From the IMG/VR virus record IMGVR_UViG_3300037041_001930: 64,000 bases of DNA; one strand, 5' to 3'. Source of the DNA: a virus (Duplodnaviria > Caudoviricetes). Shown one piece after another: positions 55,406 to 55,641 of the stretch. The stretch's first letter is position 1, and each line of letters begins with the position of its first letter. Made by a program: the position numbers and the translations under genes. The notes beneath the pieces were generated by a model that was not told the DNA's origin, did no database searches, and was given only the letters and a program-made list of their open reading frames with translations.

Positions 55406-55641
55406 AAAAGCAGCACATACGGTGCTCCTAATACTCTAATACCAACAGCCAACAGCCCCCCAGCGGTGGCGCCGACACCACCGGAGGTGGCGATGACGGC
55501 GACCCAGATCAGTGGCATTCACACGTCGAGGATCTCGACACCAGTGACTCCACCAGTGGTGGCGCCACGCGCAGCGGGCGGTGGGGCCGGATGTTGGCTA
55601 TCTGGTATTAAAGAACTAGAAGCACCGTATGTGCTGCTTTT
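55406..55641 (-). ncRNA. ~236-nt long imperfect hairpin (candidate structured RNA or origin element)
   Basis: Perfect 21-bp terminal inverted repeat (55406-55426 / 55621-55641); pairing extends inward; most mismatches G-U compatible on minus strand. Confidence 0.55.

What the first reader, a model, noticed from the sequence alone, without database searches (positions are those of the whole stretch)
55406..55641. ~236-nt giant hairpin with strand-specific G-U signature
Seen: 55406-55454 pairs with 55592-55641 as 43 Watson-Crick pairs, 5 A/C oppositions, one A/A and one bulge. Inner stems (GTGGCGCC 55466-73 with 55561-68; 55477-84 with 55553-60, one more A/C) and an apical GTCGAG-GAT-CTCGAC hairpin follow. 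A/C on the plus strand is G-U on the minus strand, the direction of both flanking genes. Inference: selection on a single-stranded minus-sense structure (RNA or extruded ssDNA). Candidates are a 6S-like RNAP decoy (long stem, central asymmetric bubble), an RNase III substrate controlling sbcD, or a replication origin.
Basis: partly seen in the sequence, partly recalled or inferred. Interest (0 to 1): 0.75.

Follow-up and report, generated by a model that had tools for sequence, protein, structure and literature searches.

The report
Giant palindrome beside Rep-like phage gene
A 236-base DNA palindrome, the largest in this uncultured freshwater giant phage, sits just after a gene shaped like a plasmid replication starter; five related phage lineages keep such a palindrome there with unrelated sequences, so it is most likely the DNA site that protein acts on, probably the replication origin, not a strand-specific RNA.

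Summary
The hairpin is real. At 55406-55641, 44 Watson-Crick pairs, 4 A/C, 1 A/A and one bulge form the outer stem, and the inner stems and apical hairpin are as described. It is the top inverted repeat both in this 171.5-kb contig and in a complete 216-kb relative.

Five close relatives keep it. Nine pairs in the outer stem show compensatory changes. The GC-rich core is more conserved than third codon positions of the flanking genes.

The "strand-specific G-U signature" does not hold. Relatives mix C·A and U·G mismatches and fold equally well or better on the other strand.

No ORF inside is conserved, and Rfam finds nothing (no 6S).

The element travels with the upstream gene X (55668-56579, minus strand), not with sbcD. 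X has a zinc finger, and its predicted fold best matches Rep_1 rolling-circle initiators, but it lacks the HUH histidines.

Four more X lineages have unrelated but equally strong perfect-stem palindromes right after X, several with iteron-like repeats. One relative has a lambda-O-like protein and three 22-nt-spaced repeats at this position instead. The window core itself has four 17-nt repeats spaced 21-22 nt, with AT-rich flanks.

Best reading (about 45%): a DNA-level origin or initiator-recognition palindrome. An RNA role such as RNase III processing is not excluded (about 25%).

The scan's own note e1-5365373 on this window had the same Rep-palindrome idea.

The parts
55406..55641 (.). Whole 236-nt palindrome (giant hairpin / potential cruciform)
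   Evidence: Fold z-scores of -12.3 and -8.1 as RNA and -10.6 and -10.3 as ssDNA. Top inverted repeat of the contig. Conserved in 5 close relatives.
55406..55454 (.). Left outer arm (3' arm on the gene-sense minus strand)
   Evidence: Pairs with 55592-55641: 44 WC, 4 A/C, 1 A/A, 1 bulge. Eight of the nine compensatory double changes fall in the outer arms.
55592..55641 (.). Right outer arm (5' arm on the minus strand)
   Evidence: Sequence identity between allele groups is only 0.69-0.78, yet pairing is kept.
55455..55591 (.). GC-rich, sequence-conserved core with nested sub-palindromes
   Evidence: Identity between the diverged groups is 0.83-0.91, against 0.58-0.70 at third codon positions of the flanking genes. 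There are no indels.
55457..55473 (+). Iteron-like 17-nt repeat, copy 1 (reference copy)
   Evidence: Family of 4 direct copies spaced 21, 72 and 22 nt. None of 500 shuffles of the core reaches 4 copies.
55478..55494 (+). Iteron-like repeat, copy 2
   Evidence: 71% identity to the reference copy.
55550..55566 (+). Iteron-like repeat, copy 3
   Evidence: 88% identity to the reference copy.
55572..55588 (+). Iteron-like repeat, copy 4
   Evidence: 71% identity to the reference copy.
55525..55539 (.). Apical 6-bp / 3-nt-loop hairpin, lying off the axis of the large palindrome
   Evidence: Nearly invariant in all six sequences, with one G/A change in the stem.
55642..55667 (.). AT-rich spacer between the X stop codon and the palindrome
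   Evidence: GC is 0.37 in 55600-55699, against 0.575 for the genome.
55374..55405 (-). Spacer carrying the AAGGAG ribosome-binding site of sbcD, just after the palindrome
   Evidence: GACAAGGAGTT is invariant in the six sequences.
55668..56579 (-). Gene X, 303 aa: four-Cys zinc finger plus a Rep_1-like fold, without the HUH histidines. Proposed partner of the palindrome.
   Evidence: Invariant residues C82, C97, C102, P103, C105 and W106 in 29 homologues. AF2 pLDDT 80. ESM Atlas best match is a Rep_1 cluster, TM 0.55/0.51 over 227 aa. Pfam Rep_1 is only sub-threshold.
54243..55373 (-). SbcD/Mre11-like phosphoesterase, the downstream neighbour (not part of the module)
   Evidence: Pfam Metallophos 8e-8. 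Best NCBIfam hits are SbcD/Mre11, below cut-off. Between the window and L008 it is 97% identical while X is 69% identical, so a recombination breakpoint lies near its start.

Best explanation
The palindrome is a cis-acting DNA element that belongs to the upstream gene X. Together they form an initiator-plus-site module, most likely the phage's replication origin.

Proposed mechanism (inferred, not shown):
- X is a zinc-finger protein with the fold of Rep_1/HUH-type rolling-circle initiators but without the metal-binding histidines.
- X recognises the conserved GC-rich core, which holds four dyad-symmetric 17-nt repeats spaced two helical turns apart.
- The long arms let the region extrude as a hairpin or cruciform when the AT-rich flanks open.
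- This exposes single-stranded DNA on which the phage's own replisome is loaded.

What is shown: the structure, its uniqueness in the genome, its conservation with compensatory change, the sequence constraint on the core, its linkage to X across lineages, and the Rep_1-like fold of X.

What is inferred: binding, extrusion and initiation.
For: 1. The element is unique. It is the top inverted repeat in the 171.5-kb contig and in the complete 216-kb relative. In the 191.5-kb phage G002, the repeat motif of the equivalent gap occurs exactly (three copies) nowhere else in the genome; the only other hit has two mismatches.
2. It is linked to X, not to sbcD.
 - Window versus L008: SbcD is 97% identical, X 69%, and the outer arms 0.77.
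 - In L033 the palindrome follows X although the next gene is not sbcD.
 - Gaps of 124-299 nt follow X in nearly all loci.
3. Five X lineages carry sequence-unrelated but strongly folding palindromes that start 0-26 nt after the X stop in four of them; in L009 the first repeat copy lies just after the stop. These are the window group, L009, L012, L033 and L036, with ssDNA z-scores from -6.4 to -10.4.
4. The outer stems in the distant lineages are perfect Watson-Crick (25, 22 and 21 bp) with no G·U, as expected for DNA dyads.
5. Iteron-like direct repeats are present:
 - window core, 4 x 17 nt spaced 21/72/22 nt, reached by 0 of 500 shuffles;
 - L009, three direct copies plus one inverted;
 - L033, two direct plus one inverted;
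 - L036, a 9-nt tandem repeated four times.
6. L011 has, at the same place upstream of sbcD, a divergent HTH protein with weak lambda-O-like / replication-initiator hits (PHROG 2e-4) and three 18-nt repeats spaced 22 and 21 nt. This looks like a non-orthologous swap of a replication module.
7. The predicted fold of X best matches Rep_1 initiators (TM 0.55/0.51). Other HUH-type families also appear: IS91 Y2 transposase with its zinc domain, G2P Rep and Y1 transposase. The SIRV1 Rep is the top PDB match at Z 5.6, tied with ribosomal protein S6.
8. The flanks are AT-rich: GC 0.37-0.41 against 0.575 for the genome.
9. The strand asymmetry is not conserved, and the two ssDNA strands fold almost equally.
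Against: - No functional data exist.
- GC skew in the complete relative shows no inflection at the site. Skew is weak throughout, so this test is uninformative.
- X lacks the HUH histidines and an invariant tyrosine. If it initiates, it does not do so by the textbook nicking chemistry.
- Fold matches are modest: TM 0.55 in the Atlas, PDB Z 5.6 tied with ribosomal S6, and Foldseek E 0.1.
- L034/L035 have X overlapping sbcD with no gap or palindrome, so the site is not obligatory next to X.
- The region lies inside a co-oriented gene pair. Its 3' edge lies 17-32 nt before the next start codon in the window group, L009 and L012, overlaps it in L036, and is 82 nt away in L033. Contigs from an RNA library cover it. 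An RNA role is therefore equally compatible with the position.
- Palindrome arms can stay complementary by template switching without selection.
Confidence: 0.45

Rival explanations
1. RNA-level element in the X-sbcD transcript. The giant hairpin forms in the polycistronic mRNA and is cut by RNase III, or it acts as a stability or translation barrier. This would uncouple expression of X from the downstream gene, as the intercistronic RNase III sites of T7 do.
For: - Both flanking genes are on the minus strand, and the hairpin ends 17-32 nt before the next start codon in three lineages and overlaps the called start in L036.
- Perfect stems of 21-25 bp are long enough for RNase III (established knowledge).
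- The window's own mismatches are all G·U on the sense strand.
- Metatranscriptome contigs cover 55188-55947, including the whole hairpin.
- Compensatory changes keep the pairing.
Against: - The G·U bias is absent in relatives, where C·A mismatches occur on the sense strand and the antisense strand folds as well or better.
- There are no G·U pairs in about 68 bp of distant-lineage outer stems.
- Extra direct copies of the arm motif and tandem repeats in the loops have no obvious RNA role.
- There is only one such element per 170-216 kb genome, whereas processing sites are usually several.
- The element follows X whatever the downstream gene is.
- The RNA-library contigs cannot exclude contaminating DNA.
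Confidence: 0.25
2. Packaging or terminus-processing site. X, a nickase-like protein, and the palindrome lie within about 1.7 kb of the divergently transcribed large terminase gene. They would mark where concatemers are nicked or cut, or where terminal repeats are regenerated through a hairpin.
For: - A gpA-type terminase gene lies divergently 0.2-1.7 kb from X in every locus with enough flank: the window, L012, L015, and the P0008 and P0019 contexts.
- The site is unique in the genome.
- X has a HUH-like fold.
Against: - No terminase small-subunit features were found in X.
- Relatives assemble as circles with only a 123-bp overlap, so no physical end is visible at the site.
- In L011 a lambda-O-like initiator takes X's position, which points to replication rather than packaging.
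- X lacks catalytic HUH residues.
Confidence: 0.1
3. Remnant or domesticated rolling-circle transposon (IS91/ISCR/Helitron-like). X would be a decayed transposase and the palindrome its terminal hairpin, with no present function for the phage.
For: The fold resembles the IS91 Y2 transposase with its zinc-binding domain (TM 0.41) and the Helitron transposase (Z 3.9). One of 29 members has a sub-threshold Zn_Tnp_IS91 hit. The catalytic histidines are lost.
Against: - There is a single copy per genome at a fixed syntenic place across lineages whose SbcD is only 47-50% identical.
- The core is under purifying selection and is more conserved than synonymous sites.
- X keeps an invariant zinc finger and gives a confident fold prediction.
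- Palindromes persist while their sequence turns over completely.
Confidence: 0.07
4. Programmed substrate for the phage's own SbcCD-like nuclease. The extruded palindrome would be cleaved to make a double-strand break that seeds recombination-dependent replication.
For: - A long palindrome lies directly upstream of an SbcD/Mre11-like gene in most lineages.
- An SbcC-like 839-aa ORF is present about 14 kb away.
- SbcCD cleaves hairpins and cruciforms (PMC4787754 and PMC3315005, listed).
- The genome encodes RecA, SSB, RuvAB and RusA according to earlier notes of this scan, which I did not check.
Against: The palindrome segregates with X, not with sbcD. L034/L035 have X and sbcD but no palindrome. 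There is no direct evidence.
Confidence: 0.05
5. 6S-like RNA polymerase decoy, another stable small RNA, or a small membrane peptide encoded inside the hairpin.
For: A long stem with an asymmetric centre. A 39-aa hydrophobic ORF lies at 55399-55518 on the minus strand.
Against: - No Rfam family, including 6S, matches at E<=10.
- The centre is predicted to be paired sub-helices rather than an open bubble.
- The ATG of the 39-aa ORF is ATT, ATC or ACG in relatives.
- Indels shift all frames between the two allele groups.
- Variable core sites are not enriched at the third position of that frame.
Confidence: 0.03

Closest known systems
Iteron-type phage and plasmid origins next to their initiator gene (lambda ori with its four dyad-symmetric 19-bp O-binding repeats and AT-rich flank)
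   Same: Four dyad-symmetric 17-nt repeats spaced about two helical turns apart, AT-rich flanks, a position adjacent to a candidate initiator gene, and a single copy per genome. One relative carries a lambda-O-like protein and 22-nt-spaced repeats at the same place.
   Different: Here the repeats are embedded in a palindrome of about 236 nt whose 49-nt outer arms co-vary. The site lies after, not inside, the initiator gene. The candidate initiator has a Rep_1-like fold, not the winged-helix fold of O.
Rolling-circle replicons of the Rep_1 (pC194/pUB110) family, with a hairpin-exposed double-strand origin and a long palindromic single-strand origin (ssoA/ssoU type)
   Same: A protein with an N-terminal Cys motif and a Rep_1-like fold sits next to a 120-240-nt non-coding palindrome. 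HUH-type proteins act on DNA hairpins (PMC5714925).
   Different: X fails the Pfam Rep_1 threshold and lacks the HUH histidines and an invariant tyrosine. The host replicon is a phage of about 216 kb with its own replisome genes, not a small RCR plasmid. No orientation-specific (one-strand) signature is conserved. The ssoA landmarks were not examined.
Herpes simplex virus oriL (144-bp perfect palindrome bound by the origin-binding protein UL9); from my own knowledge, not checked here
   Same: A long palindromic origin in a large dsDNA virus: protein-binding repeats arranged symmetrically, able to adopt a hairpin form, and prone to instability or assembly breaks.
   Different: HSV oriL has an AT-rich centre and lies between divergent genes. 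Here the centre is GC-rich and asymmetric, the AT-rich DNA is in the flanks, and the genes are co-oriented.
T7-type intercistronic RNase III processing hairpins
   Same: An intergenic hairpin inside a co-oriented gene pair, close to the next ribosome-binding site. Such phage palindromes also form ssDNA hairpins that the Lamassu/DdmABC defence senses (PMC11707656).
   Different: T7 sites are about 50-60 nt, carry internal loops and occur many times per genome. This element is 236 nt, unique in the genome, and carries iteron-like repeats.

Membership tests
6S RNA (Rfam RF00013) and any other Rfam family | Match to the family covariance model | tested here: not met
   cmscan of 54800-56300 on both strands at E<=10 gave only two chance hits outside the hairpin (mir-H7, Ocean-VII) and none to 6S.
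6S RNA | Large open central bubble that mimics an open promoter | tested here: not met
   MFE and alignment consensus structures fill the centre with 3-4 short helices.
Intrinsic (rho-independent) terminator | GC-rich stem immediately followed by a U-tract, conserved in relatives | tested here: not met
   The window group has only 4-5 U after the stem. L009, L012, L033 and L036 have none. The scan flags only small sub-hairpins.
RNase III processing site | About 20 bp or more of dsRNA in a transcript | tested here: inconclusive
   The stems are long enough. RNA-library contigs cover the region but cannot prove transcription.
RNase III processing site | Staggered cleavage in vivo or in vitro | not testable with these tools
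   Needs raw stranded reads or an enzyme assay.
Iteron-type replication origin | Three or more direct repeats at helical-turn multiples | tested here: met
   Four 17-nt copies spaced 21/72/22 nt, reached by 0 of 500 shuffles. L011 has 3 x 18 nt at 22 and 21 nt, and L009, L033 and L036 also carry repeats.
Iteron-type replication origin | Adjacent AT-rich unwinding region | tested here: met
   GC is 0.37-0.41 in the 100-nt windows at both bases of the palindrome, against 0.575 for the genome.
Iteron-type replication origin | Adjacent initiator gene | tested here: inconclusive
   X has a Rep_1-like fold but no significant family match.
Iteron-type replication origin | Origin activity, copy-number peak or skew switch | tested here: inconclusive
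   Cumulative GC skew of the complete relative is weak and featureless. Read depth is available only as contigs.
Rep_1 / HUH rolling-circle initiator (for gene X) | Pfam PF01446 score above the gathering threshold | tested here: not met
   Best score is 13 bits (E 0.071) against a cut-off of 33.2. It covers only the Cys motif and is seen in 4 of 29 family members.
Rep_1 / HUH rolling-circle initiator (for gene X) | Motif II, His-hydrophobic-His metal site | tested here: not met
   No conserved histidine pair. The invariant columns are C82, C97, C102, P103, C105 and W106. The central strand reads WSLE or YTLN.
Rep_1 / HUH rolling-circle initiator (for gene X) | Motif III, catalytic Tyr (YxxK/H) on a helix | tested here: inconclusive
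   Many distant members have Y-x-x-H after the conserved HPW, but the tyrosine is not invariant and does not align in the window group.
Rep_1 / HUH rolling-circle initiator (for gene X) | Overall fold | tested here: met
   With an AF2 model at pLDDT 80, the ESM Atlas top match is a 100% Rep_1 cluster at TM 0.55/0.51 over 227 residues. PDB matches are weak: SIRV1 Rep Z 5.6, and geminivirus Rep at Foldseek E 0.1.
ssoA-type single-strand origin | Function and structure specific to one strand | tested here: not met
   The strand preference seen in the window is reversed or absent in relatives.

The most novel reading that the evidence does not exclude
A clade of uncultured freshwater phages of about 190-216 kb uses a previously undescribed origin type. 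It would be a giant extrudable palindrome (120-240 nt) with internal iterons, read by a new family of Rep_1-fold zinc-finger proteins that have lost the HUH nicking site. In other words, a rolling-circle initiator scaffold would have been re-purposed as a structure-specific origin-binding protein in a large dsDNA phage. Arm sequence and protein allele would co-diversify as a swappable module.
Probability: 0.3. Interest if true: 0.75.

Novelty: new variant of a known kind. Interest (0 to 1): 0.6.

Why it matters
Replication origins of large uncultured phages are almost entirely unknown. A sequence-independent signature would give a way to find them: a unique long palindrome that immediately follows a Rep_1-fold zinc-finger gene.

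Long palindromes are normally destroyed by SbcCD and sensed by defence systems such as Lamassu/DdmABC (PMC3315005, PMC11707656). A 236-bp palindrome held by selection in a phage that also encodes its own SbcD-like nuclease raises a question: how is the element protected or exploited?

Gene X defines a family of at least 26 cluster representatives with no Pfam, PHROG or NCBIfam assignment. Its fold links it to HUH initiators although it lacks their catalytic histidines. That is of interest for how origin-binding proteins evolve from nickases.

If the RNA reading is right instead, this would be an unusually large and unique processing signal.

Tried and rejected
- Rfam at a permissive threshold found nothing relevant.
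- Megablast and tblastn of the region, SbcD and X against 50,697 phage records found no match. The terminase is only 21-29% identical to Herelleviridae-like and Vibrio phage terminases.
- A protein-pattern scan of metagenome contigs with the SbcD alignment found no confirmed relative. A pattern scan of viral contigs with the X protein found nothing.
- A whole-genome sliding RNA fold timed out. My first palindrome scoring was uninformative, so I replaced it with an X-drop arm extension.
- The 39-aa ORF (55399-55518, minus strand), the 28-aa ORF, the 98-aa plus-strand ORF, and the 46-aa ORF that a gene caller predicted in L015 are rejected as genes. Start codons are not conserved, and indels shift frames between allele groups.
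- GC skew of the complete relative gave no usable signal.
- A sigma-70-like promoter match at 55695-55667 (minus strand) is at chance frequency, 1 found against 1.3 expected.
- Laying runs on the window: only contigs were available. RNA-library contigs cover 55188-55466 and 55454-55947 and break at the inner end of the arm, as expected for assembly of an inverted repeat. This shows neither transcription nor processing. Parts of sbcD and X without RNA-contig cover carry no meaning.
- Foldseek against the PDB gave no significant match for either X model.
- P0007, P0008, P0015 and P0019 contexts came without DNA, so only the gap lengths (158-274 nt; P0007 lies at a contig edge) could be read.
- Complex prediction was not used, because it does not model protein-DNA binding.
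Full report
**Where the element lies**

The window is the last 64 kb of a 171,559-bp IMG/VR viral contig, estimated 79% complete by CheckV, with GC 0.575. The flagged element fills the 294-nt gap between two minus-strand genes. Downstream is an SbcD/Mre11-like phosphoesterase at 54243-55373 (Metallophos 8e-8; best NCBIfam hits are SbcD/Mre11 below cut-off). Upstream is an ORF I call X. Comparison with relatives puts X at 55668-56579, 303 aa. A gpA-type large terminase gene lies divergently at 57317-59161. 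An SbcC-like 839-aa ORF lies about 14 kb away.

**Check of the observation**

- 55406-55454 pairs with 55592-55641 as 44 Watson-Crick pairs, 4 A/C, 1 A/A and one bulge.
- As RNA, the minus strand folds at -143.5 kcal/mol (z -12.3) and the plus strand at -122.9 (z -8.1).
- As ssDNA the two strands are nearly equal, at -77.8 and -73.5.
- An X-drop scan of the whole contig ranks this inverted repeat first. The next ones are ordinary hairpins with 17-24-bp arms.

So the structure is real, far beyond chance, and unique in the genome. The G-U asymmetry in this one sequence rests on five transitions.

**Close relatives**

Five close relatives were recovered:
- L003, from a complete 216,043-bp genome, and L004, both from IMG/VR;
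- L008, L015 and L016, from Logan and JGI assemblies.

All carry the same element in the same gap (alignment A5). RNAalifold finds 95 consensus pairs. Nine of them show changes on both sides that keep the pair, and eight of those nine lie in the outer arms. Examples are G-C to U-A, C-G to G-C, and a two-position CA/UG to GG/CC swap in L016.

The outer arms are only 0.69-0.78 identical between the two allele groups (window and L016 against L003, L004, L008 and L015). That is about the level of third codon positions in the flanking genes (0.58-0.70). The 121-column core is 0.83-0.91 identical and has no indels. So the arms are constrained for pairing and the core for sequence. In the complete relative the element is again the top inverted repeat of the genome.

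**The strand-specific signature fails**

On the gene-sense strand, the relatives carry C·A as often as U·G, plus transversion mismatches. Their sense and antisense RNA energies are:

| Sequence | Sense | Antisense |
|---|---|---|
| L003 | -156.2 | -161.7 |
| L004 | -149.2 | -148.0 |
| L008 | -133.2 | -135.7 |
| Window | -146.6 | -126.5 |

Across the six sequences I count roughly six independent G·U events against three A·C events, which decides nothing.

**No coding or known RNA family**

- The ATG of the 39-aa hydrophobic ORF inside the hairpin becomes ATT, ATC or ACG in relatives.
- Three 1-nt indels shift every frame between the allele groups.
- Rfam gives no match.

**The element belongs to X, not to sbcD**

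Between the window and L008, SbcD is 97% identical (third positions 0.90), while X is 69% identical and the arms 0.77. A recombination breakpoint therefore lies at about the sbcD start.

I searched for more distant SbcD and X homologues and fetched their DNA.
- **L012** (SbcD 47% identical): 24 nt after X comes a perfect 25-bp stem that encloses a second hairpin (ssDNA z -8.2).
- **L009/L010** (SbcD 50% identical): three direct copies and one inverted copy of a roughly 21-nt motif. The inverted copy makes a perfect 22-bp stem (z -7.2).
- **L033**, in a complete 191.5-kb phage: the palindrome starts at the X stop codon. It is built from two direct copies and one inverted copy of a 15-nt motif that, at up to two mismatches, has only one other hit in the genome (a two-mismatch site). 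The next gene here is not sbcD (z -6.4).
- **L036/L037** (X 35% identical): 17 nt after X comes a perfect 21-bp stem, then an inner stem, then a 9-nt tandem repeated four times (z -10.4).

None of these sequences resembles another. Gaps of 158-274 nt also lie at the equivalent place (after X, before the next gene) in three contexts that came without DNA. The exception is L034/L035, where X overlaps sbcD and there is no palindrome. L005, a 26%-identical SbcD locus, also has no gap.

**What X is**

X has no Pfam, PHROG or NCBIfam family. A profile search of 1.8 billion representatives found 26 homologues. The 29-sequence alignment has only six invariant columns: four cysteines in a C...C-x4-C-P-x-C-W motif, plus the Pro and Trp of that motif. 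This motif gives sub-threshold Rep_1 hits in 4 of 29 members and one Zn_Tnp_IS91 hit.

With the deeper alignment, AlphaFold reaches pLDDT 80 and pTM 0.78.
- In the ESM Atlas the best structural match is a cluster that is 100% Rep_1 (TM 0.55/0.51 over 227 residues). It is followed by IS91 Y2 transposases with their zinc domain, G2P-type Reps and Y1 transposases.
- Against the PDB the matches are weak. The SIRV1 Rep reaches Z 5.6, tied with ribosomal protein S6, and the geminivirus Rep gives Foldseek E 0.1.
- The strand where HUH should lie reads WSLE or YTLN. No tyrosine is invariant.

So X works on a Rep_1-like scaffold but is not a demonstrable member of the HUH nucleases as defined in PMC5714925. 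My Pfam and fold tests partly support that note.

**Origin-like features**

- The window core holds four direct 17-nt repeats, each with internal dyad symmetry, spaced 21, 72 and 22 nt. No shuffle of the core out of 500 reaches four copies. Part of this follows from nested palindromy.
- The DNA at both bases of the palindrome is AT-rich, at 0.37-0.41.
- In L011 the place of X is taken by a divergent HTH protein with weak lambda-O-like and replication-initiator hits (PHROG 2e-4; Pfam Phage_rep_O and RepL sub-threshold). The gap upstream of sbcD there carries three 18-nt repeats spaced 22 and 21 nt.

Exchange of non-orthologous initiator-plus-repeat modules at one genomic position is typical of phage replication modules (established knowledge of lambdoid phages).

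**Weighing DNA against RNA**

For a DNA role:
- uniqueness in the genome;
- linkage to a protein with a DNA-hairpin-binding fold;
- perfect Watson-Crick stems without G·U in the distant lineages;
- extra direct copies and tandem repeats;
- no conserved strand preference;
- the lambda-O-like replacement in L011.

For an RNA role:
- the co-oriented flanking genes;
- the constant closeness of the 3' arm to the next ribosome-binding site;
- stems ideal for RNase III;
- contigs from a freshwater-sediment metatranscriptome that cover the whole element, which cannot exclude DNA carry-over.

GC skew is uninformative.

My odds are:

| Reading | Probability |
|---|---|
| Initiator-recognition or origin palindrome | about 0.45 |
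| RNA processing or control | about 0.25 |
| Packaging or terminus site | about 0.10 |
| Decayed rolling-circle transposon | about 0.07 |
| Programmed SbcCD substrate | about 0.05 |
| 6S-like RNA or small peptide | about 0.03 |

**Novelty**

Neither X nor SbcD has a relative among 50,697 deposited phage genomes. The phages occur in freshwater, lake and sediment metagenomes from several studies. The kind of thing, an origin-like repeat region next to an initiator-like gene, is known.

The variant is new in three respects:
- the palindrome is 120-240 nt, unique in the genome, and evolves by co-variation;
- its partner is an HUH-less Rep_1-fold zinc-finger family;
- the host genomes are about 200 kb.

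Other AI notes of this scan describe palindromic origin candidates in unrelated phages. I did not use them as evidence.

Noticed in passing
window 54243-56579 compared with L008: Mosaic. SbcD is 97% identical to L008 (third codon positions 0.90), while the adjacent X is 69% identical (0.61). A recombination breakpoint therefore lies at about the sbcD start, and the X-plus-palindrome unit behaves as an exchangeable allele.
   Followed up: partly
window 62657-62720: Second-best inverted repeat of the contig: perfect 24-bp arms with a 16-nt loop. Its equivalent in the complete relative may be the 31-bp-arm repeat at G001 68761-68827. Not examined.
   Followed up: no
window 47627-47664 and 63738-63777: Hairpins with 18-bp arms (loop 2) and 17-bp arms (loop 6), probably terminators.
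   Followed up: no
window 53716-54039 (minus strand): The 107-aa ORF just downstream of sbcD gives weak PHROG hits to a pilin family through its N-terminus (E 0.0012). This agrees with the scan's note on a prepilin-like leader (e1-5365371).
   Followed up: no
window about 38400-41000 (G000 148124-148588 matched, minus strand): The SbcC/Rad50-like AAA_23 domain lies in an 839-aa open frame about 14 kb from sbcD, not next to it. In L012 and the P0008 context, sbcC lies 1-2 kb downstream of sbcD.
   Followed up: no
L009 1-1052 (minus strand): The gene divergent from X in this relative, probably the terminase, carries an intein with a LAGLIDADG homing endonuclease domain.
   Followed up: no
L013, L014 and the P0007 context: Several metagenome contigs end 80-210 nt upstream of sbcD, at or inside the palindrome. 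The RNA-library contigs also break at 55454-55466. This suggests that assemblers often break at this inverted repeat.
   Followed up: partly
window 51599-52300 (minus strand): Ankyrin-repeat protein (Ank_2 7e-7), also present in L008.
   Followed up: no
G001 (complete relative), whole genome: A crude ORF map puts almost all long ORFs on one strand, with the terminase among the few on the other. The 123-bp terminal repeat looks like an assembly overlap of a circular or permuted genome.
   Followed up: partly
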